Assembly: GCA_016234345.1 (NCBI GenBank)
Contig: JACRFG010000078.1
Span: forward strand, 1 to 36,413
Length of the DNA: 36,413 nt
DNA from: Candidatus Jorgensenbacteria bacterium
GTDB lineage: Bacteria; Patescibacteriota; Minisyncoccia; UBA6257; GWB1-50-10
Reading direction: 5' to 3'
Below the pieces are notes generated by a model. The model worked only from the letters and a program-made list of their open reading frames with translations. It ran no database searches and was not told where the DNA came from. The translations under genes and the position numbers were made by a program. Below, piece by piece: positions 19,399-36,413 of this stretch (position 1 is the first letter of the stretch; each line of letters starts with the position of its first letter).

Positions 19399-21162
19399 AT
19401 GAATCAACGAGAATCAAGAAAATGTCAAAACTGTCGACAAGAATTTTGGATTGAACCGGAAGACTTCACTTTTTACGAACGTATCAATGTTCCGCCGCCG
19501 ACCTGGTGTCCAGAGTGTCGGATGATACGACGGATGTCTTTTCGAAATGAGAGAACGCTTTACAGGCGAGAATGCAATTTATGTAAGAAAAATATTATCG
19601 CGATGTACGACTCAACTGCCCCATTCTCTGTTTTCTGTTATGAATGTTGGTGGTCTGATAAATGGGGTGCCGAGACATTTGAGCAAGATTATGATTGGAA
19701 TCGGCCGTTTCTTGAACAATTTAGAGAACTTCTTTTAAAAGTCCCTAAGATTGCATTAGTTCATTATCCGCCCAATACAGATGTTAACTACGCTAATTTT
19801 GTTGCTAAAGATCGCAATGTGTATCTTGCGTATTCCGTTGTTGAATGCGAAAACGTGTTCTATTCATATAGTGTTGATAAAAGCAAGGAAAGCTTTGACT
19901 GTCTATATTTGAAAGGTTCCGAATTTTGTTTCGAAAATACTGACAGCGAAAATAACTATAATTGTTCATATCTGTTTCGCTCCCGCGACTGTATTAATTC
20001 GTCATTTTTATTTGATTGCGCTAATTGTCAGAATTGCTTTATGTCTTCAAATCTTCGGAATAAGCAATTCGTATTTCGTGGACAGCAACTTAATAAGAAT
20101 TCTTATGAAGCCAAGCTACAAGAAGTTATTGCCGGAAGCTATGAAAGTTATGAAGAATATAGGACTGAGTTCAAAAATTTAATGCGGAGCTCTCTTCACA
20201 AGTTTGCAAATCTGGTTAAAACAACCAACTGCACCGGTGATAATATTGCTAATTCAAAGAACGTTCGTGGATCATTCGGTGTTTATAACGCTGAAAATGT
20301 AAAATATTCAATTCGAGCCCTTCGTGAGGTTAAAGATACGTATGATCTTTATGGCGGATTAGGAGAATTGCTTTATGAAGGAACAGTAACTGGGTGGGGT
20401 AGTTTTAAACTTTCTGTTTTTACATATGCAAGTGCCTCACACGACGCTTCATATATTGATTGGTGCCAGAATTGTTCATATCTATTAGGTTGCGCAGGAT
20501 TGCGTAATAAGCAGTACTGCATTTTGAACAAACAGTACTCCAAAGAGGAGTATGAAGCGCTCGTTCCCAAGGTTATCGAGCATATGAATGCGATGCCGTA
20601 TGTAGATATGCAGGGACGAGTTTATCGATACGGCGAGTTTTTTCCTCCGGACCTTTCGCCATTTGCCTATAATGAGACTATTGCGCAGGAGTATTTTTCT
20701 TTGACTAAAGATCAGGCATTTGTCCGAGGATGTCGGTGGCGAGATCCTGACGGTCGGGACTACCATATTACTAAAACATTTTATGAACTTCCCGATCACG
20801 TTAAAGATGCTGCTGACTCTATTGTGAATGAAGTGATTGGTTGTGCTCATGAAGGGAAGTGTAATGAGCAATGTACTACCGCATTTAAGATTATTCCTCA
20901 AGAATTGGCATTTTATAGAAAAATGAATCTTCCACTTCCACGTCTTTGTCCCAACTGTCGTCACTATGAACGTCTCGCACAGCGTAATCCTTTGAAACTC
21001 TGGCATCGAACATGCATGTGTGACTACAAGGTCCGTGAGAATGGCGGAACGCACCAACATCACCCAACAGGTCCATGTCCGAACGAATTTGAAACAAGTT
21101 ACGTTCCCGACCGACTAGAGGTCGTCTACTGTGAACCGTGCTATAACGCAGAAGTAGTTTAG
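19399..21162 (+). CDS. Cys-rich zinc-ribbon/repeat protein, array paralog 1 (587 aa)
   Basis: The N-terminus is CQNCRQEFWIEPEDFTFYERINVPPPTWCPECRMIRR...RNERTLYRRECNLCKK...FCYECWWSDKW. An internal cap reads CQNCSYLLGCAGLRNKQYCILNKQYSKEEYE. The C-terminus is LPLPRLCPNCRHYERLAQRNPLKLWHRTCMC...CPNEFETSY...VVYCEPCYNAEVV. I count about 32 Cys. Confidence 0.85.
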   Translation: MNQRESRKCQNCRQEFWIEPEDFTFYERINVPPPTWCPECRMIRRMSFRNERTLYRRECNLCKKNIIAMYDSTAPFSVFCYECWWSDKWGAETFEQDYDWNRPFLEQFRELLLKVPKIALVHYPPNTDVNYANFVAKDRNVYLAYSVVECENVFYSYSVDKSKESFDCLYLKGSEFCFENTDSENNYNCSYLFRSRDCINSSFLFDCANCQNCFMSSNLRNKQFVFRGQQLNKNSYEAKLQEVIAGSYESYEEYRTEFKNLMRSSLHKFANLVKTTNCTGDNIANSKNVRGSFGVYNAENVKYSIRALREVKDTYDLYGGLGELLYEGTVTGWGSFKLSVFTYASASHDASYIDWCQNCSYLLGCAGLRNKQYCILNKQYSKEEYEALVPKVIEHMNAMPYVDMQGRVYRYGEFFPPDLSPFAYNETIAQEYFSLTKDQAFVRGCRWRDPDGRDYHITKTFYELPDHVKDAADSIVNEVIGCAHEGKCNEQCTTAFKIIPQELAFYRKMNLPLPRLCPNCRHYERLAQRNPLKLWHRTCMCDYKVRENGGTHQHHPTGPCPNEFETSYVPDRLEVVYCEPCYNAEVV

Positions 21163-21165
21163 AAT

Positions 21166-21777
21166 ATGACCAAACAAATTATTCTTAAAGAAACAAAAAA
21201 GCCTTTCTATTTTTCAGAAAGCGATTTACCAATGTTTATTCATGGTATAGATAAGGCCGGAGCATCTTTGTTTTCAGTTGCGGTTGCTACGCAATTCTTT
21301 CTAAACGGTAAAAAGATTATTTTTTTCACGGCTTATCCGATGGCAAAAGAAGAGTTTTTGAGTCAGATAGCTGGTTCTGATAAAGAAAATAAAGTTTTCT
21401 ATTTGGAGCATTCAAAAAATATTACAGAAGCTTCTAATTTCAGCGCGATCATAGTCAAAAGTGGCGATTGGGAACTTTGTTTGACGGTTTTGAGAACTCT
21501 AAATGACGTAGGAGAGAGAATCATTTTTGTTAAAAATATAGAATCAATTCTCAAAAGAGAACTCTTTTCGGCTGTTAAGATGCATCATAAATTGATCTTT
21601 TCTGGCGATGTTGATAAAATTGGTTTTGCTGAAGAAATAATCGCATTTAATTTCAATACCAAAATTTTATTTTCTAAACCAAAAATAAATATTGGCATTG
21701 ATATTCCCATTTTGGATAAATATGTAGGTTTTGTCGTCGGACGTGAAAACGCGCTGGTTAAGTTAGATGATTTTTAA
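21166..21777 (+). CDS. Hypothetical protein (203 aa) embedded in the array
   Basis: It starts 3 nt after the paralog 1 stop and ends 2 nt before the paralog 2 start. It contains GIDKAGAS, which resembles a Walker A (GxxxxGK[ST]) with Lys replaced by Ala. No family was recognised. Confidence 0.6.
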   Translation: MTKQIILKETKKPFYFSESDLPMFIHGIDKAGASLFSVAVATQFFLNGKKIIFFTAYPMAKEEFLSQIAGSDKENKVFYLEHSKNITEASNFSAIIVKSGDWELCLTVLRTLNDVGERIIFVKNIESILKRELFSAVKMHHKLIFSGDVDKIGFAEEIIAFNFNTKILFSKPKINIGIDIPILDKYVGFVVGRENALVKLDDF

Positions 21778-21779
21778 AT

Positions 21780-23558
21780 ATGAACTCAGAAATCAAACAA
21801 TGCCAAAATTGTAAACAAAACTTCGTCGTCGAACCGGATGATTTTAATTTTTATGAAAAGATAAAAGTGCCAGCGCCCACGTGGTGCCCGGAATGCCGTA
21901 TGATTCGCCGACTCGTTTGGCGGAACGAAAGAGCGCTCTACAAGCGGAAATGTGATTTGTGTGGTGAGATGAAGATATTGATGTATGCATCTGAAAAACC
22001 CTATAAAGTATATTGTTACGAATGTTGGTGGTCGGATAAGTGGAGTGCTTTGGATTACGGTCGAGATTACGATTTCAACCGGCCGTTTTTTGAGCAATTT
22101 GCCGAGTTATTAAAGACCGTACCTCGACCGGGCGTGATTAAGCAGGGGAATCATGTTGAGAGTGAATACACAAATCGGGTGACCAATATGAGGCATTGTT
22201 ATTTGGTTTATGGAACAGCGATTGCTGAATATTGTAGATATGGCGTGTGGTTAAACAGTTCAAAAGAATGCATGGATGGTTACAATGTTCAAAAATCAGA
22301 ACGTTGCTACGAATGTATTGATTGTTTCCAATGCTACGGTCTTGCTTTTTCAGAGGAATGCAATAATTCTGTGGATTCGTGGTTTCTTTTAAACTGCAAT
22401 AATTGCCAGAATTGTTTTGGTTGCGTGAATCTTCGTAATAAGTCCTATTGTATTTTCAATAAGCAGTATACAAAAGAAGAGTATCAAAAGATTATTGCGG
22501 GCTATCAGCTTGGAAGCGCGATATTCGTTGAGGGTATGCGTTCCCGATTCAATGATTTTAAAAAGAGATTTATCGTGCCGGCGATTGTAACTCATCATAG
22601 TATAAATATGAGCGGTAATTGGATTGAGAATTCAAAAAATATTTTTAGATCATTTACAATCGCAAACGTTGAAGAGGGTCGATATAGTTACGCTGTTTTT
22701 GATGCGAAAGATATTATGGATTACACATTTTGGGGTGCTACCGCTGAGCTTGTGTTTGAGGCCGTGAATTGCGGTATTCAGGCGTCGGATCTTCAGTTTG
22801 TGAATGAGTGTTGGAATCAAGCAATTGGTATGCGATATTCCATGAATTGTCATAGTTCACATAATCTTTTCGGCTGTATCGGAGTTAAAAATTCGGAATA
22901 TTGCATTTTGAATAAGCAATATCCAAAAGCAGAATATGAACAAATAATAGAAAAAATACGTGGCCAGATGGATAAAACTCTTTATGTAGATAAAAAAGGA
23001 AGAAAATATGTATACGGTGATTTTTTCCCTCTCGAGCTATCTCCCTTTGCATATAACGAGACTCTGGCGCAAGAATATTTCCCTATTCATAGAGAGACCG
23101 CGTTAAAAATGGATTATCCTTGGAAAGAGCTAGACGACAGAAATTATCAGATAACGTTGGATGCAGCAGCTCTTCCGGATAATATAAACGAGGTTCATGA
23201 TTCGGTTGTGAACGAAATAGTGAGCTGTGACCATGCTGGAAAGTGTAATCAACAATGCACGACCGCCTTCCGAATTACAGAAGAAGATTTACGCATGTAT
23301 CGCGCGGCAAAACTTCCTCTTCCGCGTTTATGCCCTAATTGCCGGCACTATGAGCGTTTAGCAAAAAGGAATCCTCTTAAGCTGTGGCATCGTATTTGTC
23401 AGTGTGGGGGAAGCATATCAGAGAACGGTTCGTATAAAAATTTATCTGAGCATTTTCATACTAATAGCCACTGTCCTAACGAATTTGAAACTTCCTACGC
23501 TCCCGACCGGCCAGAAATAATCTATTGCGAGCAATGTTATAACGCTGAGGTAGTATAA
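21780..23558 (+). CDS. Cys-rich zinc-ribbon/repeat protein, array paralog 2 (592 aa)
   Basis: It has the same architecture as paralog 1: CQNCKQNFVVEPDDFNFYEKIKVPAPTWCPECRMIRR, two caps (CQNCFGCVNLRNKSYCIFNKQYTKEEYQ and LFGCIGVKNSEYCILNKQYPKAEYE), and the tail IIYCEQCYNAEVV. Confidence 0.85.
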   Translation: MNSEIKQCQNCKQNFVVEPDDFNFYEKIKVPAPTWCPECRMIRRLVWRNERALYKRKCDLCGEMKILMYASEKPYKVYCYECWWSDKWSALDYGRDYDFNRPFFEQFAELLKTVPRPGVIKQGNHVESEYTNRVTNMRHCYLVYGTAIAEYCRYGVWLNSSKECMDGYNVQKSERCYECIDCFQCYGLAFSEECNNSVDSWFLLNCNNCQNCFGCVNLRNKSYCIFNKQYTKEEYQKIIAGYQLGSAIFVEGMRSRFNDFKKRFIVPAIVTHHSINMSGNWIENSKNIFRSFTIANVEEGRYSYAVFDAKDIMDYTFWGATAELVFEAVNCGIQASDLQFVNECWNQAIGMRYSMNCHSSHNLFGCIGVKNSEYCILNKQYPKAEYEQIIEKIRGQMDKTLYVDKKGRKYVYGDFFPLELSPFAYNETLAQEYFPIHRETALKMDYPWKELDDRNYQITLDAAALPDNINEVHDSVVNEIVSCDHAGKCNQQCTTAFRITEEDLRMYRAAKLPLPRLCPNCRHYERLAKRNPLKLWHRICQCGGSISENGSYKNLSEHFHTNSHCPNEFETSYAPDRPEIIYCEQCYNAEVV

Positions 23559-23595
23559 TATAGACAGCAAAGGTCGAAAGTTTAATAGCAAATAC

Positions 23596-23901
23596 ATGAT
23601 TTTTATATACACAACTTCTCCGAATCTTGAAGAAGCCAAAAAATTAGCTGAGGTTATTATCGATAAAAAGCTTGCGAGCGCCGTCAATTTATGGCCGACC
23701 CAGTCAATTTATATGTGGAAGGGAGAAAAACGAGAGGGGGAGGGGGCTGTTCTTTTTATACGGACGCTTGAGTCAAAGCTTCAGGAGATTGAAGATTTGA
23801 TTGGTACTCATAACATGCACGGCATTCCCTGCGTGGCTGCAGTCGATGTACGGCGTATCAACCGTCACTATAAAGAGCATCTTGTAGAGTGCGTGGGTTA
23901 G
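23596..23901 (+). CDS. cutA: Divalent-cation tolerance protein CutA
   Basis: At 101 aa it fits the CutA1 pattern: IYTTSPNLEEAKKLAEVIIDKKLASAVNLWP.QSIYMWKGE...LFIRT...H.MHGIP...Y.EHL. This corresponds to the A-C-V-N / S-x-Y-x-W-x-G / K-T / H-x-Y-x-x-P motifs. Confidence 0.8.
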   Translation: MIFIYTTSPNLEEAKKLAEVIIDKKLASAVNLWPTQSIYMWKGEKREGEGAVLFIRTLESKLQEIEDLIGTHNMHGIPCVAAVDVRRINRHYKEHLVECVG

Positions 23902-23948: not shown

Positions 23949-25622
23949 ATGACCAATATTCAGACAATACATTGTCGCAGCTGTAAGAATTCATTTGTTG
24001 TAGGACCAGACGATATTGCGTTTTACGCAAAAATGGACGTGTCGATACCGACGCTTTGTCCTGAATGTCGAATGCGTTGGAAATTTTTATGGCGTAACGA
24101 ACGAACGCTCTATAAACGCATGTGCGATCTTTGTAAGCGTTCGGTTGTGACCATGCATCATCCGCGAATGCAATTTCCGGTATACTGTTATGAATGCTGG
24201 TTTTCAGACAAATGGGATCCGTTTAGTTATAGCCGATCGTACGACATCAGTCGTCCTTTTTTTGAACAGCTTGGTGAACTTATACAGCAAGTTCCTAAAC
24301 AAGCTATGTATAGTTCTCCTGAAAGCGGACCGAATATAAATAGTGAATATACAAATTTTGCCGGAGGTAACAAGGATTGTTATCTTATTTTTAATTCCGG
24401 CCCTAAAAATGAGAATTGCGCATACGCGCGTGGGCTTATGCAGTGTCGTGATGTTTTTGATATGTATTATGGTTCGGACGTTGAGCGTAGTTATGAAGGC
24501 GTGAATATTCAGAAGAGCACTGGTGTTGGCTATGGCAAGGATGTGCTTGAGTGTTTGGATTCATGGTTTCTTTTGAACTGCACGGGTTGTCAATATTGTT
24601 TTGGCTGTGTGAATTTGCGCCACAAGTCGTATTATTTTTTTAACGAACCGCTTTCAAAAGATGAGTGGATGAGACGAGTATCAGAAGTATTGGGTAGTTA
24701 TAAAAAAATGGAAGCTGCGAGGAAACAATTTGAAGATTTCGGTCTTAAATTTCCGCGACGAGAACATAGTAATATGAAATCAATAAATTGTATCGGCGAC
24801 TATATATTTGAATCAAAAAATTGCTATGCATGTTTTGAAGTTTCATTTGCCGAAGATCTGCGATACGTTTTTGCGACTAAGCGTACCAAGGACAGCTTTG
24901 ATTTAGTTGGTCATGGCCGTGAATCTGAGTTGTTGCTTGAAGGCGTTGGTGTTGGGTGGTCGTCACGGGTTATCGGTTCGTGGCGCGTTGAGCGTTCTCA
25001 TGACATAGAATATTGTCTTGGTACTCGGACGAGTGAGCACTGTATAGGTTGCGATGGTTTGAAAAACGCCAAGTACTGCATTTTAAACAAACAGTACTCT
25101 GAAGCAGAGTATAAAAAATTACGTACTCACATTGTAAATGAGTTAAAAAATAAAGAGCTGTACGGACTTTTCTTGCCACCCGAAATATCTCTTTTTGCCT
25201 ATAACGAAACAATAGGTCAGGATAATTTACCGTTGAGTCGAGAGGAGGCCGCACGTTACGGATTTCGGTGGGAAGACGATATTCCACGCACCAAAGATCA
25301 AGAAACCATGCAGCCGCAACAAATTCCCGATCACATTAAAGATACTCTCGATTCAATGCTGAACGAAGTTTTACGATGCGTGAGTTGTGGTTATAACTAT
25401 CGTTTGATAAAGCCAGAGCTCGAATTCTATCGAAAGCTGCTAATCCCGATTCCCCGGCAGTGTTTTAATTGTCGGTTTCTTGATCGTATCAAACGTCGTG
25501 GCCCGATGAAACTTTATGAACGTCAGTGTGGTAAATGCAAAAAATCAATCAAAACTACTTATGCTTCTGATCGTCCCGAAATCGTCTACTGTGAACAGTG
25601 CTATAACGCGGAAGTTATATGA
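23949..25622 (+). CDS. Cys-rich zinc-ribbon/repeat protein, array paralog 3 (557 aa, short C-terminal variant)
   Basis: It shows the family N-terminus (CRSCKNSFVVGPDDIAFYAKMDVSIPTLCPECR...) and the caps. The C-terminal module uses plain CxxC pairs (CVSCGYNYRLI...CFNCRF...CGKCKKSI...YCEQCYNAEVI) and lacks the CMC...HxHH...CPNEFETSY insert. Confidence 0.85.
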   Translation: MTNIQTIHCRSCKNSFVVGPDDIAFYAKMDVSIPTLCPECRMRWKFLWRNERTLYKRMCDLCKRSVVTMHHPRMQFPVYCYECWFSDKWDPFSYSRSYDISRPFFEQLGELIQQVPKQAMYSSPESGPNINSEYTNFAGGNKDCYLIFNSGPKNENCAYARGLMQCRDVFDMYYGSDVERSYEGVNIQKSTGVGYGKDVLECLDSWFLLNCTGCQYCFGCVNLRHKSYYFFNEPLSKDEWMRRVSEVLGSYKKMEAARKQFEDFGLKFPRREHSNMKSINCIGDYIFESKNCYACFEVSFAEDLRYVFATKRTKDSFDLVGHGRESELLLEGVGVGWSSRVIGSWRVERSHDIEYCLGTRTSEHCIGCDGLKNAKYCILNKQYSEAEYKKLRTHIVNELKNKELYGLFLPPEISLFAYNETIGQDNLPLSREEAARYGFRWEDDIPRTKDQETMQPQQIPDHIKDTLDSMLNEVLRCVSCGYNYRLIKPELEFYRKLLIPIPRQCFNCRFLDRIKRRGPMKLYERQCGKCKKSIKTTYASDRPEIVYCEQCYNAEVI

Positions 25623-27416: not shown

Positions 27417-27710
27417 ATGAAATTCAATGTTCCGAAATCGCAATATAATCTCATAAGCATTGTTCGTGGCGTGGGATATCGGCCGCTTGGATATACTCAG
27501 GGGGGGGAGTTGAACTGCGTAAGGCCTCTCGGTGCGGACTATCCGAGGTTTCACCTCTATATTAGAGAAGGAAGCGAGAGTTTTATGTTTAACCTTCATC
27601 TCGATCAAAAGAGACCTTCGTATCAGGGCTCTACTGCTCATAGTGGTGACTACAACAGCGATATTATTAAAAGTGAAGCTTCTAGGATTAGAGGAATCAT
27701 CGGAATATGA
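27417..27710 (+). CDS. Hypothetical protein (97 aa) embedded in the array
   Basis: It starts 7 nt after the paralog 4 stop, and its own stop overlaps the paralog 5 start (ATGA). The sequence reads ...YPRFHLYIREGSESFMFNLHLDQKRPSYQGSTAHSGDY.... No family was recognised. Confidence 0.55.
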   Translation: MKFNVPKSQYNLISIVRGVGYRPLGYTQGGELNCVRPLGADYPRFHLYIREGSESFMFNLHLDQKRPSYQGSTAHSGDYNSDIIKSEASRIRGIIGI

Positions 27711-29428: not shown

Positions 29429-31197
29429 ATTCGGAAACCAAGACCTGTCAAAATTGCAAACAGAACTTCGTTATCGAACCCGAAGATTTTCAGTTCTATG
29501 AGAAAATAAAGGTTCTGCAGCCCACGTGGTGCCCGGAGTGTCGGATGATAAGGCGAATGATTATTCGTAATGAAAGAGTGTTGTATCGGAGACCATGTAA
29601 GGGATTGGGGCATAACGAAGAAGTAATTTCTATTTATTCCGCTGATAAGCCGTTTAATGTTTACGATCAGAAGTTGTGGTGGTCTGACGAGTGGGATTCA
29701 TTGCAATTTGGTAAAACATACGACTTTTCTCGTCCATTTTTTGAACAATTCAAGGAATTATGGGAGACGGTACCTCTTTTGGCGCTGTCAAACTCTAATG
29801 CCATAAACAGCGACTATTGTAATGTCGCCGATCAAAGCAAGGATTCCTATATGACCTCAGGTTCCTTCAAAATAGAGAACACCCATTATTCTAATCGGGT
29901 GTATACAGTAAAAGATTCTATGGATTTATATGTTGGTTTCAGAAATGAACTTTGTTACGAATGCGTTCACTGTTCGGACTGTTATCGGGTTGTTTATGGT
30001 AAGCAATGTATCGGTTGCACCGATTCTTATTTTCTCTATGATTGTCGCAATTGTTCTAATTGCTTCGGTTGCACTAATTTGAGAAATAAAAATCACTGCA
30101 TTTTTAACAAGCAATACACCAAAGAAGATTATTTGAAGAAAATTTCGGAATTTAATCTTGGGAGTGCGAAACAGATCGAAAAGTTAAGTAAAGAATTTAA
30201 TAATGTATATTTTAAATCCATTCATAAATACGCGACGATTTTAAAATCGGTTAATGTTATTGGTGATAATGTTAGCGATGCCAAGAATTGCAAAGTTTGT
30301 TTCGATATAACCGAAGGCGGTGAAGATTGTAAATATGTTCATTGGGGAGGGTTGCAGACAAAAGATGTCTATGATGGTGGACCTGGTGTCGGGATTATAG
30401 ATCTTTCATATGAGATTGTTGATACTGGGTTGCAAGGCTCTAATATCGCTTTCACTAATGTTGTTTATGGATCTCATAATGTTCGCTATGCTCTTTTTTG
30501 CCATAATTCATCGAATATTTTCGGTTGTATCGGGTTGAGAAATAAGAATTATTGCATTTTGAATAAACAGTACTCGAAAGAAGAATACGAAGAGTTAATA
30601 CCTAGGGTTATAAAACACATGAATCATATGCCATATATTGATGAGCGGGACAGACAATATCGGTATGGTGAGTTTTTTCCACCCTCCATTTCGCCGTTTT
30701 GTTATAACGAAAGCATTGCGCAGGATTATTTTCCGCTTACTAGAGAAAAAGCATTAGAGAGGGGATATAAATGGAGAGAGTTGGATGAACGTCACTATAA
30801 AACAACAAAGAAAGCAGTCGACCTTCCCGACAACATAAAAGAAGTGACCGATGAAATTCTCAAAGAAATTATCGAGTGCGTGCATAAAGGAGAATGCAAT
30901 GATGGTTGTACAATAGCTTTCAAGATAATGCCAGCAGAGCTCCAATTTTATCAACGTCTTAATTTACCGTTACCACGATTTTGTTTTAATTGTCGGCATG
31001 TCAGACGGTTACAGGAAAGGAATCCATTAAAATTGTGGCATCGTGGATGTATGTGTGATTATGAGGTTTATCCGAACACGAGACGCCATAAACATCATTT
31101 GGATGGTCGGTGTCCCAATGAATTTGAAACGAGTTATTCTTCCGAACGAAAAGAGATCGTGTATTGTGAACAATGTTATAACGCGGAAGTAGTATGA
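29425..31197 (+). CDS. Cys-rich zinc-ribbon/repeat protein, array paralog 6 (590 aa, GHNEE variant)
   Basis: ATGA overlaps occur at both ends. The second N-terminal ribbon is replaced by PCKGLGHNEEVISIYS...VYDQKLWW. The rest matches the family, and the tail is IVYCEQCYNAEVV. Confidence 0.85.
   Translation: MNSETKTCQNCKQNFVIEPEDFQFYEKIKVLQPTWCPECRMIRRMIIRNERVLYRRPCKGLGHNEEVISIYSADKPFNVYDQKLWWSDEWDSLQFGKTYDFSRPFFEQFKELWETVPLLALSNSNAINSDYCNVADQSKDSYMTSGSFKIENTHYSNRVYTVKDSMDLYVGFRNELCYECVHCSDCYRVVYGKQCIGCTDSYFLYDCRNCSNCFGCTNLRNKNHCIFNKQYTKEDYLKKISEFNLGSAKQIEKLSKEFNNVYFKSIHKYATILKSVNVIGDNVSDAKNCKVCFDITEGGEDCKYVHWGGLQTKDVYDGGPGVGIIDLSYEIVDTGLQGSNIAFTNVVYGSHNVRYALFCHNSSNIFGCIGLRNKNYCILNKQYSKEEYEELIPRVIKHMNHMPYIDERDRQYRYGEFFPPSISPFCYNESIAQDYFPLTREKALERGYKWRELDERHYKTTKKAVDLPDNIKEVTDEILKEIIECVHKGECNDGCTIAFKIMPAELQFYQRLNLPLPRFCFNCRHVRRLQERNPLKLWHRGCMCDYEVYPNTRRHKHHLDGRCPNEFETSYSSERKEIVYCEQCYNAEVV
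29443..29480 (+). repeat. 38-nt tract identical to 27725-27762
   Basis: See the partner copy at 27725-27762. Confidence 0.9.
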
Positions 31198-32939
31198 TTT
31201 CTAAAACCCCACAATTTGATAAAGCCTTAGATAAGGTTTTGCATGAACTTATCCCACATGCTCGTGAATGCGATCAGCGGGATATTTCCGAGTATTGCGA
31301 GAAAAAGTTCGAAATTACAGATCAGGATATTGAGTTTTTGAAGATCCTTCGTGTTCCTCCTCCAATACAATGCCCAACCTGCCGGCGGCAAAGACGCTTT
31401 TCATTTATGAATTGGACACGTCTTTTTAAGCGTCCTTGTAATGCTCCAGGACATAATGAAGAAATCATTTCTTCCGTTTCGACATCATGTCCATTCCCTG
31501 TCGTTGATATTCCATACTATCAATCGAGCTATTTCGATCCTACACGCATGGGGTTTGTATCTGACATAGGAAAATCGTTTTGGTCACAATTTTATGAACT
31601 CCGTAGACGCGTGCCCTTACCGGCAATGGTACAAGAACCATCGAATGTGAATGCCGAATATTCAATGGGTGGACGCAACTCAAAGAATGTATATTATGCG
31701 ACTGGCGTTTTCAATTCGGAGGATATTCTCTATGCCAATGGTATTAGAGATTGCCGCGAGTGTATGGATATAATTTTTGTGACCAAAGCCGATCGTGTGT
31801 ATGAGGCGATCAGGTCGGAAAATATTGTTAATTCTTCATATATTTATTTCTCCGAAGAATGCATTGATTCAATGTTTCTTTTTGATTGTCGGAATTGCAT
31901 CAATTGTTTTGGATGCGTAAATCTCCGCAATAAGAGTTTTTGCTTTTTTAATGAGCAGCTTTCCCGTGAGGCTTATTTGGAAAAAATTAAAGCGTTTGAT
32001 ATGGGCGATCGAAAAACTCTTCGTTCTTTGCTCGACCGTTTTTGGTCGTTTGTGAAGTCTCGGCCGATTCGAGCGAGCCAAAATTTTTCTTCTGAAAGGG
32101 TAAACGGCGTTAGTATTTCTCAATCTCGAGATTTGGACTACGTTATCGCCGCAGAAAATTCCGGGCATGTGCGTCACTCCGAAGACATTTTAGGACATCA
32201 TGATTCCATGGATGTTACCGTGTCCGGAGGCCATTCCCACCACCTGTATGAAACATCAAATGTCGGTTCTCAATCTTCTGTTACTAAGTTTTCGTTTACA
32301 TCAAAATATATAACCGACTCCGAATTCCTTTTAAATTGTAAGCGTTGTAAAAACTGTTTTGGGTGTGTCGGCCTTGAGGACAAATCATTTTATATATTGA
32401 ATATCCCTTATAAGCCGGACGAGTATTGGAGCACCGTTGATAAGATAAAACTCGCTATGCTTGGGCGGGGAGAGTACGGGATGGGTGTTCCAATATCCTT
32501 TTCACCCTATGCATACAATATAACTCTGGCAAACGTTCCGTTTCCTCTTGCGTCGGAAGCAGTTACCCGACTTCACGGATACTCGCAGGGTGAAACAGAG
32601 AGTAATGTTAAAAACATGCCGACTTTGAAGTCAGATGAGGTGCCGCGTTCCATTGATGATGTATCTGATACGATTATTCAAACAGCAGTTCTATCGGAGC
32701 ATTCCGGCCGGCCCTTTAGAATCGTTCCGAAGGAGCTTGAGTTTTACCGAAGACATCGTCTATCTATTCCACTTTCCCATCCTTATGAGCGTATGGATGC
32801 ACGGACAAGAATCATGGGTTCCTACAAAGCGTATAGGGCAGTTTGTTCTCATTGTGGAAAGAATATTCAGAGCGCATTTGATCCGGCTGAAGGCTTTACT
32901 CTTTATTGCGATATGTGTTATCAGAATGAAGTATTATGA
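31194..32939 (+). CDS. Cys-rich zinc-ribbon/repeat protein, array paralog 7 (581 aa, most divergent)
   Basis: It has an extended, divergent N-terminus (ECDQRDISEYCEKKFEITDQDIEFLKILRVPPPIQCPTCRRQRR) and the GHNEE variant (PCNAPGHNEEIISSVS). Caps are retained (CINCFGCVNLRNKSFCFFNEQ, CKNCFGCVGLEDKSFYILN). The tail is LYCDMCYQNEVL. Confidence 0.8.
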   Translation: MISKTPQFDKALDKVLHELIPHARECDQRDISEYCEKKFEITDQDIEFLKILRVPPPIQCPTCRRQRRFSFMNWTRLFKRPCNAPGHNEEIISSVSTSCPFPVVDIPYYQSSYFDPTRMGFVSDIGKSFWSQFYELRRRVPLPAMVQEPSNVNAEYSMGGRNSKNVYYATGVFNSEDILYANGIRDCRECMDIIFVTKADRVYEAIRSENIVNSSYIYFSEECIDSMFLFDCRNCINCFGCVNLRNKSFCFFNEQLSREAYLEKIKAFDMGDRKTLRSLLDRFWSFVKSRPIRASQNFSSERVNGVSISQSRDLDYVIAAENSGHVRHSEDILGHHDSMDVTVSGGHSHHLYETSNVGSQSSVTKFSFTSKYITDSEFLLNCKRCKNCFGCVGLEDKSFYILNIPYKPDEYWSTVDKIKLAMLGRGEYGMGVPISFSPYAYNITLANVPFPLASEAVTRLHGYSQGETESNVKNMPTLKSDEVPRSIDDVSDTIIQTAVLSEHSGRPFRIVPKELEFYRRHRLSIPLSHPYERMDARTRIMGSYKAYRAVCSHCGKNIQSAFDPAEGFTLYCDMCYQNEVL

Positions 32940-32945
32940 TGAATC

Positions 32946-34730
32946 ATGAGTGAAGAAAACCACAATTGCCAAAATTGTAAGAAAAATTTCGTTATTGAGC
33001 CGGAGGATTTTGAATTTTACAAGAAAATACAGGTTCTAGCACCGACGTTTTGTCCGCGGTGCCGGCTACAGCGGCGGTTAGCATTTAAGAACGAGCGAAC
33101 GCTCTATAAACGTAACTGTGATTTATGCAAGAAAGATATCATAGCTATTTTTCCATCAGACGTTCCGTTTCCGGTCTACTGCCCGCCGTGTTGGTTTTCC
33201 GATAAGTGGGATGCTGAGAGTTACGGCGTTACTTATGATCCGACGAGGAATTTTTTCCCACAGTTTCACGATTTGATGAAACGCGTCCCCAAGGTTGGAT
33301 TGTATATAGATTGGCAGAGAACGGTGAATAGCGAATATCTCCATCTTACCGGTCCGATGAAGGATTGTTATCTGCTTTTTTTGGCTGAAGACACAGAAAA
33401 CTGCATGTATTCCTACGGCTTATTTCATTCCAAAGATACTGTTGATTGCACAAAAGTTTTACATTCAACCGAGAGCTATGAGTTAGTAAATTGCCACAAT
33501 TGTTACCATACATTATTTTCCGTTGATTGCCGGAATTGTGTCAACGTTTATTTTTCGAGGAATCTGAATAACTGCACCGATTGTTTTGGTTGTGTTAATT
33601 TAGTCGGCAAGAAAAATTGTATTTGGAATAAGCAGCACACAGAGGAAGATTATAAGAAAGAAATCAACAAACTACTATCAGGGTCTTTTAGAGACTTTGA
33701 TTATTACAAAAAACAATCGCGTGAAACGTGGCTCAAGTATCCGAATAAGTTTATCCACGGCCATAGCAATAATAATGTAAGTGGCGATTATATATACAAC
33801 AGTAAAAACGTACAACATTCGTTCGAGGTAATAGGCGGTGAGGATAACAAATATTGTCATGTTATCAATATGCAGCCGACCAACAATTGTTATGACTACG
33901 GCGATTGGGGTAAGAATGCTTCATTCATGTACGAATCCGTTAACTGTGGCGAAGATATTAGTAATACCAGATTTTCTTATGGCACTTGGATAGGCAAGGA
34001 AATGGACTATTGCGATGTGTCGATCGAAGGCGATAATCTATTTGGCTGTATTTCTTTAAGACGTAAAGGGTATTGCATTTTAAATAAGCGTTACAGCAAG
34101 GGAGAATATTTGTCGTTGCGGGATAGGATTATTAAAGACATGAATCAAAATCCGTACATCGACAAAAGGGGGCGTGTTTACCGTTATGGTGAGTTTTTTC
34201 CGATAGAGCTTTCACCTTATCCATATTATGACACCGCCGCCAATGATTTATTCTCTTTATCGAAAGAGGAGATCATATCCGAAGGTTATCGGTGGCGCGA
34301 TTCAGAAAAAAGAGAATATGCTGCGACGTGTAAAGCTACCGATCTACCTAATACAATTCAGGAAGTGAAAGACAGTATATTGCATGAGGTGATTGAGTGT
34401 GCGCATAAAGGAAATTGTAATGATCGTTGCACTATAGCTTTTAGAATAGTGCCTCAAGAATTGGCTTTTTATCGCAAGATGAATATACCGTTGCCGCATT
34501 TATGCCATAATTGCCGTCATTATGAACGGTTCAAATTTATGAATCCGCCTCAGCTTTGGGATCGGCATTGCGCCTGTAGCGGTTTTCAGTCAAAAGGCGG
34601 GGTGTATTCAAACACCATTTCGCACTTTCATGGCGACAAAGAATGTCCCAATAGATTTAAGACCAGTTATTCACTAGTTCGTTCCGAAATCGTCTACTGC
34701 GAGCAGTGTTACAACGCAGAAGTAATTTAA
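32946..34730 (+). CDS. Cys-rich zinc-ribbon/repeat protein, array paralog 8 (594 aa)
   Basis: It carries CQNCKKNFVIEPEDFEFYKKIQVLAPTFCPRCRLQRR, the caps, CHNCRHYERF, CPNRFKTSY and IVYCEQCYNAEVI. Confidence 0.85.
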   Translation: MSEENHNCQNCKKNFVIEPEDFEFYKKIQVLAPTFCPRCRLQRRLAFKNERTLYKRNCDLCKKDIIAIFPSDVPFPVYCPPCWFSDKWDAESYGVTYDPTRNFFPQFHDLMKRVPKVGLYIDWQRTVNSEYLHLTGPMKDCYLLFLAEDTENCMYSYGLFHSKDTVDCTKVLHSTESYELVNCHNCYHTLFSVDCRNCVNVYFSRNLNNCTDCFGCVNLVGKKNCIWNKQHTEEDYKKEINKLLSGSFRDFDYYKKQSRETWLKYPNKFIHGHSNNNVSGDYIYNSKNVQHSFEVIGGEDNKYCHVINMQPTNNCYDYGDWGKNASFMYESVNCGEDISNTRFSYGTWIGKEMDYCDVSIEGDNLFGCISLRRKGYCILNKRYSKGEYLSLRDRIIKDMNQNPYIDKRGRVYRYGEFFPIELSPYPYYDTAANDLFSLSKEEIISEGYRWRDSEKREYAATCKATDLPNTIQEVKDSILHEVIECAHKGNCNDRCTIAFRIVPQELAFYRKMNIPLPHLCHNCRHYERFKFMNPPQLWDRHCACSGFQSKGGVYSNTISHFHGDKECPNRFKTSYSLVRSEIVYCEQCYNAEVI

Positions 34731-34732
34731 TC

Positions 34733-36413
34733 ATGAGTTTAGAAACTAGAGTTTGTCAAAATTGTAAGCAAAACTTCGTCATTGAACCCGAAGATTTTTT
34801 ATTCTATGAAAAAATGCAGGTTCCGCCGCCTACGTTTTGTCCGACTTGCAGATTTCAGCGGCGAACCATGTTTCGGAATGAGCGAGTGCTTTACAAGCGC
34901 GCGTGCGATTTATGCGGTAAGGATACGATTGCTGTTTTTGCGCCGGATAATAAACGGACGGTATTTTGTTCTTCTTGTTGGTGGTCGGATAAATGGGATC
35001 CTCTTTCGTATGGCGTCGCTTATGACGATAGCCGTTCTTTTTTTGAACAATTAGATGATCTTGCGAAACGCGTTCCATATCCGAGTTTAATTATCGATCA
35101 GCCGACTTTAGTAAACAGTGATTATGTGAATCACGCAGGACACCTTAAAAACTGTTACCTTGTATTCGATACGGATTATGCAGAAAACGTATTATACGCT
35201 ACGATCGCGAACGGAACGAAAGATTCAATGGATTTAAAACTCGTCGATGAATCAGAGCTTTGTTATTGGGACATTAATTGTCTGAAATGTTCTCGCGTAT
35301 TTTTCTCCGAAGATTGTTCCGATTGCCACAATGTCTATTTTTCTAAGAATTTAAGCGGGTGCAGTAACTGTATCGGTTGCGTTAATCTTCGCAACAAAAA
35401 TTATCATATTTTTAATCAGCTTGTTTCAAAGGAGGATTACGAAAAGGAGATACAAAAACTCAATCTCGGTTCTTTTAAATCTCTTTTGGCGTTTGATCGA
35501 CGAGTTCGGGATTTCTGGAAAAAATCACCGCATAAATTTATACACGGTCGGCATAATTCAAATATAACCGGTGATTACATTTACAATTCGAAAAACCTTA
35601 AGGATGGATATATATGTCGTGGTGTGGAAGATGGGAGATTTTGTCAGCGTTTAAGCGTACCGTCCGCAAAAGATGTATATGACTACACCGAATGGGGATA
35701 TAACGCCCAACGGATCTACGAATGCGTCACGGTGGGGGAGTACGTTGATCGGGTTAAATTTTCTTCTTTCTGTTTTAAGAATTCTAGAGATGTTGAGTAT
35801 TCTATGGGGATTGTTTCTTCGTCGAACTTGTTCGGTTGTGTTGGGTTGCGCGGTCAAGAGTTCTGTATTTTGAATCGGCGATACAAGCCCGATGAATACA
35901 AGCGTTTTCGCGACGCTATCATGCGGGATATGACTGAACGGCCGTACGTCGATGCTCGAGGGCGTGTGTTTGGTTATGGGGAATTTTTCCCTTACGATTT
36001 GAGTCCCTTTGATTATAACGAGTCTACAGCCGTTCAATATTTCCCCTTGAAACAGGAGGCAGTGGTTACGAATGGATGGCGTTGGAGAGAACCGACATTA
36101 AACACTTATGAGGTGACCATGTCTTCGGAGAATATTCCCGATAGTATTCATGACGTAGCCGAGAACATTTTAAATGAGGTATTTGGTTGTTCGCGGTGTA
36201 GCCGCGCTTTCCGTGTAATTAAGTCTGAACTTGAACTTCTTAGACGTTTTAGTTTCCCACTTCCTAGGATGTGCTCTGAGTGTCGGCACGCAGAACGTAT
36301 GAAACGTCTTAATCCGCCTAGTTTGTGGAAGCGTCAGTGTGCAAAATGTGCCAGCGGAATTCTTACATCGTATGCGCCAAATCGGGAAGAGATAGTATAT
36401 TGTCAGCGTTGCT
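34733..36413 (+). CDS. Cys-rich zinc-ribbon/repeat protein, array paralog 9 (3' end cut by window, at least 560 aa)
   Basis: It is not in the supplied ORF track because it has no stop inside the window. I translated frame 2 from the ATG at 34733 to 36413 and found no stop codon. The product reads MSLETRVCQNCKQNFVIEPEDFLFYEKMQVPPPTFCPTCRFQRRTMFRNERVLYKRACDLCGKD...CSNCIGCVNLRNKNYHIFNQ...LFGCVGLRGQEFCILNRRYKPDEY...FPLPRMCSECRHAERMKRLNPPSLWKRQCAKCASGILTSYAPNREEIVYCQRC. By analogy, only about 6 codons are missing. Confidence 0.85.
   Translation, partial: MSLETRVCQNCKQNFVIEPEDFLFYEKMQVPPPTFCPTCRFQRRTMFRNERVLYKRACDLCGKDTIAVFAPDNKRTVFCSSCWWSDKWDPLSYGVAYDDSRSFFEQLDDLAKRVPYPSLIIDQPTLVNSDYVNHAGHLKNCYLVFDTDYAENVLYATIANGTKDSMDLKLVDESELCYWDINCLKCSRVFFSEDCSDCHNVYFSKNLSGCSNCIGCVNLRNKNYHIFNQLVSKEDYEKEIQKLNLGSFKSLLAFDRRVRDFWKKSPHKFIHGRHNSNITGDYIYNSKNLKDGYICRGVEDGRFCQRLSVPSAKDVYDYTEWGYNAQRIYECVTVGEYVDRVKFSSFCFKNSRDVEYSMGIVSSSNLFGCVGLRGQEFCILNRRYKPDEYKRFRDAIMRDMTERPYVDARGRVFGYGEFFPYDLSPFDYNESTAVQYFPLKQEAVVTNGWRWREPTLNTYEVTMSSENIPDSIHDVAENILNEVFGCSRCSRAFRVIKSELELLRRFSFPLPRMCSECRHAERMKRLNPPSLWKRQCAKCASGILTSYAPNREEIVYCQRC

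What the first reader, a model, noticed from the sequence alone, without database searches (positions are those of the whole stretch)
19399..36413. 17-kb operon-like tandem array of nine cysteine-rich paralogs of unknown function
Nine consecutive same-strand genes of 557-596 aa share one unmistakable architecture. They start at 19399, 21780, 23949, 25619, 27707, 29425, 31194, 32946 and 34733. The ends are strongly conserved and the middles are much more divergent. They are packed with 2-7 nt gaps or 4-nt ATGA stop/start overlaps (25619/25622, 27707/27710, 29425/29428, 31194/31197). Most lack a visible Shine-Dalgarno sequence, which implies co-transcription and translational coupling.

None has a signal peptide or TM helix. 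Each carries about 30 Cys, arranged mostly in CxxC pairs. I cannot assign the family to any characterised protein family from memory. Devoting about 17 kb of what looks like a small, streamlined genome to one paralog family argues for an important, lineage-specific function. The array reaches the window edge, so it may continue further.
Basis: partly seen in the sequence, partly recalled or inferred. Interest (0 to 1): 0.88.

Follow-up and report, generated by a model that had tools for sequence, protein, structure and literature searches.

The report
Tandem zinc-rich solenoid protein array
Nine old, diverged copies of an uncharacterised cysteine-rich protein lie in a row in a tiny Patescibacteria (CPR) genome; the family is large, has a core domain with no known relative, often sits beside a secretion-type motor ATPase, and its function is unknown.

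Summary
The nine paralogs are real and start at the stated coordinates. They are not strictly consecutive: a 203-aa ORF, a CutA1 gene and a 97-aa ORF lie between some of them. Pairwise identity is 28-49% and no DNA repeats are near-identical, so this is not an assembly artefact.

Each protein reads [double Cys4 zinc-ribbon module]-[M]-[M]-[linker]-[double zinc-ribbon module]. Both the zinc module and M are internal duplications. M has a 12-residue periodicity typical of a narrow beta-solenoid and ends in a conserved Cys cluster. M matches nothing in Pfam, NCBIfam, PADLOC or PDB sequences, and Foldseek gives no significant match.

The family is large: 2,297 50%-identity clusters at E<1e-30. Nearly all named members are Patescibacteria "hypothetical proteins". 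Tandem arrays are typical, and one public contig carries 20 copies. Copies in one array are old: 230 of 237 are closer to a protein in another genome.

The main specific neighbour is a VirD4/TraD-like ATPase, about 30 genes per Mb across 159 loci. It is present in 53% of loci with four or more copies. Its long form carries the same zinc ribbon. CutA1 is the second specific neighbour.

Function is unknown. My best guess, at low confidence, is a set of binding proteins that act as clients of that ATPase.

The parts
19399..21162 (+). Paralog 1 (587 aa)
   Evidence: ORF. Family HMM 922 bits. All four terminal Cys4 sites present.
21780..23558 (+). Paralog 2 (592 aa), the reference copy. N-terminal zinc module about 21780-22049, M1 about 22134-22499, M2 about 22596-22955, C-terminal zinc module about 23226-23555.
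   Evidence: AlphaFold model pLDDT 82.8, pTM 0.85. Internal duplications by hhalign. HMM 944 bits.
23949..25622 (+). Paralog 3 (557 aa), short C-terminal zinc module
   Evidence: Orthologs in other genomes reach 65% identity against 41% within the window.
25619..27409 (+). Paralog 4 (596 aa); ATGA overlap with paralog 3
27707..29428 (+). Paralog 5 (573 aa); ATGA overlap with the 97-aa ORF upstream
   Evidence: Orthologs elsewhere reach 69% identity.
29425..31197 (+). Paralog 6 (590 aa). The second N-terminal zinc site is replaced by a conserved 'APGHNEE' variant.
   Evidence: orthologs up to 78% identity. AlphaFold model pLDDT 85.7, pTM 0.87.
31194..32939 (+). Paralog 7 (581 aa), the most divergent (28-31% identity). 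It has a 23-aa N-terminal extension and has lost three of the four terminal zinc sites.
   Evidence: zf_Tbcl_2 hit at 546-578 above the Pfam cut-off.
32946..34730 (+). Paralog 8 (594 aa)
34733..36413 (+). Paralog 9, cut about 7 residues before its end by the contig end (560 codons)
17813..19279 (+). Soluble VirD4/TraD/TrwB-like P-loop ATPase (488 aa) with intact Walker A (GKSGVGKS) and Walker B (YVDEFH); the family's main conserved neighbour
   Evidence: Pfam TrwB_AAD_bind, DUF87 and TraG-D_C. NCBIfam TraD/VirD4-like, all below the curated cut-offs. Neighbour statistics.
15862..17280 (+). Membrane protein (472 aa, N-terminal TM helices) conserved upstream of the short ATPase form
   Evidence: Translation. 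Present in 18 loci. Weak match to the N-terminal part of phrog_5156, whose C-terminal part matches the ATPase.
17285..17806 (+). Small membrane protein (173 aa, one TM helix) between the 472-aa protein and the ATPase
   Evidence: Translation. Conserved in 13 loci.
21166..21777 (+). 203-aa ORF inside the array with no family assignment. Homologs found in only two other loci.
23596..23901 (+). CutA1 (101 aa) inside the array; the second specific neighbour of the family
   Evidence: Pfam CutA1 E 2e-20. Found in 20 of 148 loci; 17 of the 20 genes lie within 300 bp of a family gene.
27417..27710 (+). 97-aa ORF inside the array with no family assignment. Conserved inside arrays of 6 other loci.
19372..19390 (.). 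Perfect G+C-rich hairpin (ATCCCGCC-GAT-GGCGGGAT) in the 119-nt spacer between the ATPase and paralog 1
   Evidence: Function not tested.

Best explanation
The array encodes nine long-diverged members of an uncharacterised, cytoplasmically made metalloprotein family.

Shown:
- Each protein has a double Cys4 zinc-ribbon module at both ends. The two modules are homologous to each other.
- Between them lie two homologous copies of a new module, M. M is about eight 12-residue coils of a narrow beta-solenoid. It ends in a conserved Cys cluster (C197, C206, C209, C212, C215; C366, C375) and a helix.
- Between paralogs, the zinc modules, the solenoid ends and a YGEFFP..SPFAYNE segment are the most conserved parts. 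The solenoid rungs are the least conserved.
- In Paceibacteria the genes cluster with VirD4/TraD-like hexameric-type ATPases. One form follows two membrane proteins. The other carries the same zinc-ribbon type at its C-terminus.

Inferred:
- The proteins are a set of binding proteins built on one scaffold, each paralog recognising a different ligand or partner through its variable solenoid face.
- The conserved zinc modules serve as a common handle that docks to the co-encoded ATPase.
- The ATPase either hands them on as cargo or uses them as specificity adaptors for whatever it translocates.
- CutA1 may be a further partner or may help with metal loading.

The biochemical activity and the ligand are not known.
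For: Architecture and duplications:
- hhalign N-terminal versus C-terminal zinc module: probability 99.3%, E 2e-20. M1 versus M2: probability 99.8%, E 1.6e-28.
- Eight invariant Cys per double zinc module. BFVD zinc-ribbon proteins superpose at 0.6 A over about 40 residues.

Solenoid:
- Autocorrelation at lag 12 is 0.48 for hydrophobicity and 0.62 for column entropy in M1, with a second peak at lag 24. M2 peaks at lags 12-13. The control segment shows no such peak.
- The AlphaFold models place beta-bridges every 12-13 residues.
- All of the best Foldseek matches are beta-helix proteins, although none is significant.

Conserved scaffold, variable rungs: 44-49% against 23-30% identity. The Cys pattern holds across 459 members.

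Old, retained paralogs:
- 230 of 237 proteins are closer to a protein in another genome than to any co-resident copy, and no co-resident pair exceeds 70% identity.
- Every window paralog has a closer relative elsewhere.

ATPase link:
- 68 ATPase genes in 2.24 Mb of family loci, about 30 per Mb. Patescibacteria average about 2 per genome (PMC12102498).
- 38 of the 68 lie within 300 bp of a family gene.
- The ATPase is present in 15%, 23% and 53% of loci with 1, 2-3 and 4 or more copies.
- The link was seen independently in GTDB genomes and in metagenome contigs.
- Two different ATPase subtypes are both linked, in positions upstream and downstream of the arrays.
- 19 of 23 long-form ATPases carry a C-terminal CxxC..CxxC ribbon; 0 of 34 short forms do.
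- The short form is preceded by TM proteins and together they resemble the fused phrog_5156.

CutA1: 17 of 20 genes are directly adjacent to a family gene.
Against: - Only about a third of family loci (50 of 148 clustered) have the ATPase within 10 kb.
- The Peregrinibacteria-like array (L167) and the single-copy non-CPR members have no such ATPase nearby. The family's core activity therefore does not depend on it.
- These genomes are almost entirely co-directional and share synteny. Same-strand adjacency is weak evidence, and some of the linkage may be inherited gene order.
- No T4SS channel genes (VirB4 and others) were seen among the annotated neighbour clusters of these loci.
- The extreme C-terminus (..VYCEQCYNAEVV) is a folded zinc-ribbon strand, not the flexible charged tail typical of T4SS substrates.
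- Orthologs are 55-78% identical across candidate-phylum-level lineages. That is more conserved than usual for effectors.
- In non-CPR members, N-terminal GNAT or inositol-monophosphatase-like fusions hint at an enzymatic or metabolite-linked role instead.
- No interaction, expression or metal-content data exist.
Confidence: 0.3

Rival explanations
1. The proteins are secreted cargo. They would be the effector repertoire of the Patescibacteria type IV secretion system, recruited by the adjacent coupling-protein-like ATPase and delivered to the host cell. The variable solenoid faces would hit different host targets. This is the stronger, more specific form of the best explanation.
For: - Arrays lie next to T4CP-like ATPases, one form of which is tethered to membrane proteins. 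Bartonella bep effector paralogs encoded beside virD4 are an analogous case (own knowledge).
- The T4SS is widespread in Patescibacteria, lacks conjugation components, and has no known substrates. Most of its T4CP homologues lie away from virB4 (PMC12102498).
- Conserved terminal modules could be the recognition signal.
- The non-CPR members come from MAGs, one labelled Bdellovibrionales, an order known for predatory members (own knowledge).
Against: - No signal-like flexible C-terminal tail.
- Four or more tightly folded zinc sites would have to be unfolded for transport.
- Orthologs are strongly conserved and there are no recent duplicates.
- Arrays are embedded among housekeeping genes.
- No T4SS channel genes were found among the annotated neighbour clusters.
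- Arrays without an ATPase exist (L167).
- The T4CP homologue was not essential for epibiotic growth in the one genetically tested Saccharibacteria strain.
Confidence: 0.15
2. The protein has an ATPase-independent cytoplasmic role as an enzyme or a cofactor- or metabolite-binding protein. A metal or Fe-S site formed by the central Cys cluster would be the active centre. Paired invariant acidic residues in the two M modules (E150/D166 and E298/D314) would contribute. The paralogs would differ in substrate, and linkage to the ATPase would be inherited synteny.
For: - The central Cys (C140, C197, C206, C209, C212, C291, C366, C375) and polar residues (K138, D166, D314, N227, N378, Y425, N426) stay conserved even in the most distant, non-CPR members. 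Those same members have lost the Cys of the terminal zinc sites.
- N-terminal GNAT acetyltransferase fusions recur in 9 clusters, plus one IMPase/CysQ-like fusion.
- Non-CPR members are single-copy among ordinary metabolic or housekeeping genes. One overlaps the stop codon of der, downstream of iscS-mnmA-miaB/rimO-rnc.
- The best, though insignificant, fold matches are beta-helix acyltransferases and gamma-carbonic anhydrases.
Against: - No similarity to any known enzyme family.
- The most variable parts are the solenoid rungs, which would line any cleft between the modules.
- Up to 20 paralogs of one enzyme would be unusual in a genome with minimal metabolism.
- The enrichment of two ATPase subtypes, rising with array size, is hard to explain by synteny alone.
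- Neighbourhoods of the non-CPR copies are not consistent with each other.
Confidence: 0.25
3. The proteins act as a metal or thiol buffer. These very Cys-rich proteins would store or sequester zinc, copper or other soft metals, or buffer redox state, together with CutA1.
For: - 22-37 Cys per protein and at least 4-6 predicted Cys4 sites.
- CutA1, annotated as a divalent-ion tolerance protein, is directly adjacent in 17 of its 20 occurrences.
- A P-type cation ATPase lies in the window at 8706-11402.
Against: - The Cys positions are fixed in structural CxxC ribbons, not in the flexible clusters of metallothioneins.
- Many non-Cys residues are invariant, and the 590-aa fold is conserved.
- Non-CPR members have lost most terminal Cys.
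- Old, individually conserved paralogs are not expected for bulk storage.
- The function of CutA1 itself is unclear (own knowledge).
Confidence: 0.07
4. This is a conflict system. The paralogs would be variable sensors of an anti-phage or anti-host defence, or a contingency/antigenic-variation gene family.
For: - Multi-copy tandem arrays with variable surfaces.
- The ATPase has weak PADLOC hits (mad8 E 6e-14, HerA).
- In L167, cassettes are interleaved with divergently oriented TrmB-like regulators.
Against: - The family itself has no PADLOC or PHROG hit of note.
- It is absent from viral contigs.
- There are no recent duplicates or signs of gene conversion; 0 of 237 co-resident pairs exceed 70% identity.
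- There is no signal peptide or TM helix.
- Orthologs are well conserved, and the genes sit in the core chromosome among housekeeping genes.
Confidence: 0.04
5. The array is an assembly artefact or a set of decaying pseudogenes.
For: None found. The only weak point is that the contig ends inside paralog 9.
Against: - Nine intact ORFs.
- DNA identity between copies is only 60-83%.
- Each copy has its own closer ortholog in other genomes.
- Family-invariant residues are retained.
- The same arrangement appears in more than 100 independent public contigs.
Confidence: 0.01

Closest known systems
Pfam zf_Tbcl (PF13451) / zf_Tbcl_2 (PF23477) / NCBIfam TIGR04272 'CxxC-x17-CxxC' treble-clef zinc ribbons
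   Same: The four terminal zinc sites are of these types: CxxC..CP.CR and CxxC-x17-CxxC. zf_Tbcl_2 passes the Pfam cut-off in paralogs 7 and 9. Phage 'putative zinc-ribbon domain' proteins superpose at 0.6 A.
   Different: These models describe small domains of unknown function. They cover under a third of the protein. Here the two ribbons are fused into a fixed double module that occurs twice and flanks a roughly 390-aa core that no model covers.
Tandem effector paralogs encoded beside a type IV coupling protein (for example the Bartonella virB/virD4/bep locus; own knowledge)
   Same: A co-oriented array of paralogs with a conserved terminal module and a variable remainder, next to a VirD4/TraD-like ATPase gene.
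   Different: There is no BID-like domain and no charged C-terminal tail. No T4SS channel genes were found among the annotated neighbours. The paralogs are ancient and well conserved. The ATPase is soluble or split from its membrane part. Translocation is untested.
Beta-solenoid proteins: left-handed beta-helix hexapeptide transferases and gamma-carbonic anhydrases; the 12-residue Cys-rich beta-helix of Tenebrio antifreeze protein (own knowledge)
   Same: The central modules show a repeat periodicity and predicted stacked short beta-bridges. The best Foldseek matches are all left-handed beta-helix proteins. The 12-residue period, and Cys at repeat positions 2 and 8 in the last coils, recall the insect antifreeze helix.
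   Different: Foldseek scores are insignificant (E at least 0.17, TM at most 0.22). The period is 12, not 18. There is no Hexapep Pfam hit. The protein has no signal peptide, so disulfides are not expected. The antifreeze fold was not retrieved by Foldseek. This is resemblance in fold class only.
LIM domains (double zinc finger protein-interaction modules)
   Same: Two consecutive Cys4-type zinc knuckles, with weak profile matches to CRP1 and CRIP LIM domains (E 0.011-0.4).
   Different: The scores are not significant and are driven by Cys spacing. The alignment spans the second half of ribbon 1 plus ribbon 2, not one module.
Orphan T4CP (VirD4) homologues of Patescibacteria (PMC12102498)
   Same: The window's ATPase is one of these. 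[quoted passage not shown]
   Different: None of the passages I read from that paper mention a link to this Cys-rich family. The link reported here was not found in any searched paper.

Membership tests
zf_Tbcl / zf_Tbcl_2 / TIGR04272 zinc ribbons (terminal modules only) | Match to the family HMM at or above the curated cut-off | tested here: inconclusive
   zf_Tbcl_2 scores 29.2 and 28.8 bits against a cut-off of 27 in paralogs 7 and 9. zf_Tbcl scores 15-20.7 bits against a cut-off of 24 in paralogs 3, 4, 8 and 9. TIGR04272 scores 27 bits against 36. Relatives from Peregrinibacteria-labelled genomes carry precomputed PF13451 hits.
zf_Tbcl / zf_Tbcl_2 / TIGR04272 zinc ribbons (terminal modules only) | Two CxxC pairs per ribbon, conserved | tested here: met
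   Eight invariant Cys per double module in 12 module copies. In 459 members, conservation is 98-99% for ribbon 1, 88-99% for ribbon 3 and 96-98% for ribbon 4. Ribbon 2 is present in about 60% of members.
T4SS substrates / effector arrays coupled to a T4CP | Encoded next to a coupling-protein gene | tested here: met
   The window ATPase ends 119 nt before paralog 1. Across loci, 38 of 68 ATPase genes lie within 300 bp of a family gene.
T4SS substrates / effector arrays coupled to a T4CP | A T4SS channel (VirB4 and others) in the same genome | not testable with these tools
   Only a 36-kb contig is available. No such genes appeared among the annotated recurrent neighbours.
T4SS substrates / effector arrays coupled to a T4CP | A C-terminal translocation signal (flexible charged tail or BID-like domain) | tested here: not met
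   The C-terminus is the last strand and helix of a Cys4 ribbon and ends in the conserved sequence ..CEQCYNAEVV.
T4SS substrates / effector arrays coupled to a T4CP | Demonstrated translocation | not testable with these tools
   Needs an experiment.
Left-handed beta-helix (hexapeptide-repeat) proteins | Hexapeptide repeats with 18 residues per turn, a Hexapep HMM hit and a significant fold match | tested here: not met
   The period is 12. There is no Pfam hit on the M modules even at E up to 10. The best Foldseek match has E 0.17, TM at most 0.22 and rmsd above 10 A.
Insect-type 12-residue Cys-rich antifreeze beta-helix | A 12-residue repeat | tested here: met
   Autocorrelation peaks at lags 12 and 24 in M1. 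The consensus can be written in an exact 12-residue register.
Insect-type 12-residue Cys-rich antifreeze beta-helix | A secreted, disulfide-bonded protein that the fold search retrieves | tested here: not met
   No signal peptide. The fold is not among the Foldseek matches listed.
Known anti-phage defence proteins (PADLOC) | Match to a defence-system model | tested here: not met
   0 families for paralogs 2 and 6. Only the ATPase gives weak mad8/HerA hits.
Contingency / antigenic-variation gene arrays | Recent duplicates or gene conversion, and surface export | tested here: not met
   No co-resident pair exceeds 70% identity, and 230 of 237 proteins are closer to another genome's copy. No signal peptide or TM helix.

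The most novel reading that the evidence does not exclude
The arrays encode the missing substrate repertoire of the Patescibacteria type IV secretion system. Each paralog would be a zinc-ribbon-tagged beta-solenoid effector, recognised through its conserved double-ribbon handle by the dedicated VirD4/TraD-like ATPases encoded beside the arrays, and injected into the host cell. That would explain both the thousands of 'orphan' coupling proteins in these genomes and how Paceibacteria manipulate their hosts.
Probability: 0.15. Interest if true: 0.9.

Novelty: categorically new. Interest (0 to 1): 0.62.

Why it matters
- These bacteria have some of the smallest genomes known, yet they keep up to 20 diverged copies of one roughly 590-aa protein (17 kb here, 36.6 kb in a public contig). 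Selection has held these copies apart for a very long time.
- The core domain has no relative in Pfam, NCBIfam or the PDB. Its structure and chemistry would therefore be new.
- Patescibacteria carry thousands of coupling-protein-like ATPases with no known partner, and a type IV secretion system with no known substrate. The gene linkage found here gives a concrete, testable candidate for both.
- If the link is only synteny, the family is still one of the largest unannotated, multi-copy protein families in this large part of the bacterial tree. It would merit a domain definition.

Tried and rejected
- Pfam, NCBIfam, PADLOC and PHROGs on full proteins, and Pfam on isolated M modules at E up to 10: only the terminal zinc ribbons hit.
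- PDB sequence profile search of the whole family: nothing. Of the zinc module: only weak LIM-like hits.
- Two AlphaFold models, both confident overall but with pLDDT 55-75 in parts of M. Foldseek against PDB and BFVD gave no significant match for the core.
- Extending the contig: the best relative of paralog 9 in metagenome contigs is 59% identical, so the true end of the array is unknown.
- Viral contigs: no family member.
- Rfam and tRNA scans of the window: nothing.
- The promoter scan was no better than shuffled sequence.
- Gene order within arrays is not conserved between genomes.
- The 203-aa ORF is not homologous to the 200-aa ORF at the equivalent place in L001.
- Literature searches for the family, its Pfam or TIGR accessions, and Cys-rich tandem families in CPR found no description. 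Meheust et al. 2019 only note Parcubacteria-enriched hypothetical families in general.
- I considered and rejected recent expansion or arms race, assembly artefact, membrane or secreted Sec substrate, and a strongly basic nucleic-acid-binding protein (overall pI 6.1-8.2; zinc modules only mildly basic).

Full report
**1. Observation**

All nine ORFs are present on the + strand at the stated starts. Eight are 557-596 aa. The ninth runs off the contig end after 560 codons.

A MAFFT alignment shows one shared architecture, with 28-49% pairwise identity. Each ORF scores 711-944 bits against a family HMM. They carry 22-37 Cys each and 9-15 CxxC motifs. They have no hydrophobic segment long enough for a TM helix, and the first zinc ribbon starts at residue 8, so there is no signal peptide.

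DNA identity between copies reaches only 60-83% even in the most conserved blocks, so a collapsed or chimeric repeat is excluded.

Several points need correction:
- The genes are not consecutive. A 203-aa ORF (21166-21777), a CutA1 gene (23596-23901) and a 97-aa ORF (27417-27710) are interleaved.
- One of the four quoted ATGA overlaps joins the 97-aa ORF to paralog 5, not two paralogs.
- Terminator-like hairpins follow CutA1.
- Conservation is not simply 'ends against middle'. The two zinc modules, the C-terminal ends of both central modules and a YGEFFP..SPFAYNE segment are 44-49% identical. The solenoid rungs and linkers are 23-30% identical.

**2. Anatomy**

Profile-profile comparison shows two internal duplications:
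- The N-terminal module (residues 10-85) is homologous to the C-terminal module (about 492-590): probability 99.3%, E 2e-20.
- The central module M1 (about 135-243) is homologous to M2 (about 283-394): probability 99.8%, E 1.6e-28.

The protein therefore reads [Zn2]-[M]-[M]-[linker]-[Zn2].

Each Zn2 module has eight invariant Cys forming two CxxC..CxxC ribbons. They correspond to Pfam zf_Tbcl and zf_Tbcl_2 and to TIGR04272, with scores partly above and partly below the cut-offs. Phage 'zinc-ribbon domain' models superpose on them at 0.6 A.

The M module has no hit in Pfam even at E up to 10. In 459 family members its hydrophobicity and column entropy autocorrelate at lag 12 (0.48 and 0.62 in M1, with a second peak at lag 24). 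In M2 the peak is at lags 12-13. A control segment shows nothing. The consensus can be written in an exact 12-residue register: N/D-C/S-x-aromatic...

Two AlphaFold models were made: pLDDT 82.8 with pTM 0.85, and pLDDT 85.7 with pTM 0.87. Both place beta-bridges every 12-13 residues.

Foldseek finds no significant PDB match. For the second the best E was 0.17, but all 50 matches listed are left-handed beta-helix proteins. I read M as a narrow beta-solenoid of a kind not represented among solved structures. It is capped by a conserved Cys cluster (C197, C206, C209, C212, C215 in M1; C366, C375 in M2) and a helix.

Paralog 6 belongs to a conserved subfamily that has replaced the second N-terminal ribbon. 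Paralog 7 has lost three of the four terminal sites.

**3. Distribution**

A word-indexed search found more than 7,900 90%-identity clusters. All named hits in that search were 'hypothetical protein' from Patescibacteria. The lineages include Parcubacteria, Niyogi-, Kaiser-, Lipton-, Brenner-, Nomura-, Staskawicz-, Gribaldo- and Paceibacterota, and Minisyncoccia.

An exhaustive HMM search of 1.84 billion representatives gave 5,326 hits at E<1e-3 and 2,297 at E<1e-30. At least 586 places in GTDB species representatives encode a member. No viral contig does.

A divergent branch occurs in genomes labelled Gracilibacteria or Peregrinibacteria, where a few members are named 'zinc-ribbon domain containing protein'. 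It also occurs as single copies in non-CPR genomes of 42-55% GC, some with flagellar, sigma-54 or cytochrome bd neighbours. Those non-CPR copies often have degenerate terminal zinc sites. Nine clusters have an N-terminal GNAT fusion and one has an IMPase-like fusion.

Across this deepest divergence the central Cys and a set of polar residues stay conserved, while the terminal Cys do not.

**4. Arrays are the rule, and they are old**

In 159 loci the number of copies per stretch of up to 22 kb ranges from 1 to 12. Contig JALLOO010000001.1 (Patescibacteria bacterium AH-259-L05) has 20 copies in 36.6 kb, followed by the ATPase.

Of 237 proteins with a co-resident paralog, 230 are more similar to a protein in another genome. 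The median is 59% against 44.5%. No co-resident pair exceeds 70% identity. Each window paralog has a closer relative elsewhere (46-69%) than within the window (31-48%). Gene order within arrays is not conserved.

This pattern fits long-retained, individually constrained paralogs. It does not fit an arms-race or antigenic-variation family.

**5. Context**

The window is a Patescibacteria core-chromosome segment, almost entirely on one strand. It reads UvrA, thymidine kinase, UvrC, FAD oxidase, P-type ATPase, SecD, SecF, a sigma-region-4/HARE-HTH protein, a 472-aa membrane protein, a 173-aa membrane protein and a 488-aa VirD4/TraD/TrwB-like ATPase with intact Walker motifs. The array follows.

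Unbiased clustering of 1,464 neighbouring genes in 148 loci puts this ATPase first by a wide margin. It occurs in 50 loci as 68 genes, 38 of them within 300 bp of a family gene. CutA1 comes second, in 20 loci, 17 of them adjacent. The remaining recurrent neighbours that I annotated are housekeeping genes: DnaK, DnaJ, GrpE, TrmD, LigA, PGK, GatC and AlaRS.

ATPase density is about 30 per Mb. The published average for Patescibacteria is about two per genome. The fraction of loci with the ATPase rises from 15% for single copies to 53% for four or more copies. The association appears independently in GTDB genomes and in metagenome contigs.

Two ATPase subtypes are involved:
- A form of about 490 aa is preceded by the two membrane proteins. 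Together they resemble the fused 824-aa phrog_5156.
- A form of about 650 aa has a C-terminal zf_Tbcl_2-type ribbon in 19 of 23 cases, followed by a disordered tail.

A caveat applies. Same-strand orientation is uninformative in these genomes, and shared synteny inflates the counts.

**6. Interpretation**

What is shown:
- A new multi-zinc, double-solenoid protein family.
- Ancient tandem paralogs.
- Specific gene linkage to T4CP-like ATPases and CutA1 in Paceibacteria.

What is inferred:
- The conserved scaffold plus variable rungs suggest a set of binding proteins with different specificities.
- The conserved zinc modules, shared in type with the long ATPase, suggest a common docking handle.
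- The ATPase would then treat the proteins as clients, either cargo or adaptors.

I give this reading about 0.3.

The main rival, at about 0.25, is an ATPase-independent enzymatic or cofactor-binding role centred on the central Cys cluster and the paired acidic residues. The non-CPR fusions and the conservation pattern support it. Metal buffering with CutA1, a conflict system and an artefact are progressively less likely.

The most novel reading still open is that these proteins are the unknown substrates of the Patescibacteria T4SS (PMC12102498). I put that at about 0.15.

**7. Novelty**

No paper in the searchable library describes the family. Its sequences are public but unannotated. The core has no homolog or fold relative among characterised proteins.

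I rate it as outside known kinds, with function unresolved. I rate interest as moderate to high. The array itself is typical for its lineage rather than unique to this window. The family and its ATPase linkage are a real, testable lead.

Noticed in passing
window 15862-19279: A 472-aa protein with N-terminal TM helices, a 173-aa single-TM protein and the soluble T4CP-like ATPase look like a split version of one phage protein family (phrog_5156, 824 aa). The ATPase matches its positions 389-813 at E 1e-57. The 472-aa protein weakly matches positions 67-205. The trio is conserved in about 13-18 loci.
   Followed up: partly
window 14774-15793: A 339-aa protein has sigma-70 region 4 at its N-terminus and a HARE-HTH (RNA polymerase delta-like) domain near its C-terminus. 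This is an unusual architecture. It is conserved just upstream of the 472-aa membrane protein in 17 loci, and also hits the MzaA defence-associated sigma model.
   Followed up: partly
window 19372-19390: A perfect 8-bp G+C-rich hairpin (ATCCCGCC-GAT-GGCGGGAT) lies in the spacer between the ATPase and the first paralog. The T-run is on the minus strand, so it is not an obvious terminator for the + strand genes.
   Followed up: no
window 27417-27710: A 97-aa ORF lies inside the array and overlaps the start of paralog 5 by 4 nt. Homologs sit in 6 other family loci. It has no Pfam, NCBIfam, PADLOC or PHROG hit.
   Followed up: partly
window 21166-21777: A 203-aa ORF between paralogs 1 and 2 has no database hit, and homologs occur in only two other loci. 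It is not homologous to the 200-aa ORF at the same relative place in L001.
   Followed up: partly
L167 1-21674 (1.39-Mb contig, GC 56%): A divergent branch of the family forms an array of 8-9 copies broken into cassettes. Several cassettes are flanked by a divergently oriented TrmB-family regulator, and no T4CP-like ATPase lies within 10 kb.
   Followed up: partly
L164 10001-12196; L166 3687-6185; L169; L170: Single-copy non-CPR members carry an N-terminal GNAT acetyltransferase domain (nine clusters) or an inositol-monophosphatase/CysQ-like domain, and have lost most terminal zinc-site Cys. The L164 copy overlaps the stop codon of der (engA), after iscS-mnmA-miaB/rimO-rnc. The L166 copy follows a 763-aa spermine-synthase-like gene.
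   Followed up: partly
L007 / L037 / L026 (contig JALLOO010000001.1, positions 1-38300): This public Patescibacteria genome (AH-259-L05) has 20 tandem family copies in 36.6 kb. The array starts at the contig edge and is followed directly by a long-form ATPase.
   Followed up: yes
L001 13128-15035 and 22 other long-form ATPases: The roughly 650-aa ATPase subtype ends in a CxxC-x17-CxxC ribbon of the same Pfam type as the paralogs' second and fourth ribbons, followed by a long low-complexity charged tail.
   Followed up: partly
window 29425-31197: The public gene call for paralog 6 (P0001, 546 aa) covers only 93% of the ORF. It presumably starts at an internal start codon and so cuts off the first zinc ribbon. 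This may be a common annotation error for the family.
   Followed up: no
window 11392-12420 (- strand): This is one of only two sizeable non-nested minus-strand ORFs in the window (the other is the thymidine kinase gene at 2691-3323). It is 342 aa and has no Pfam or NCBIfam hit. It is wedged between the P-type ATPase and SecD and overlaps both ends by about 11 nt.
   Followed up: no
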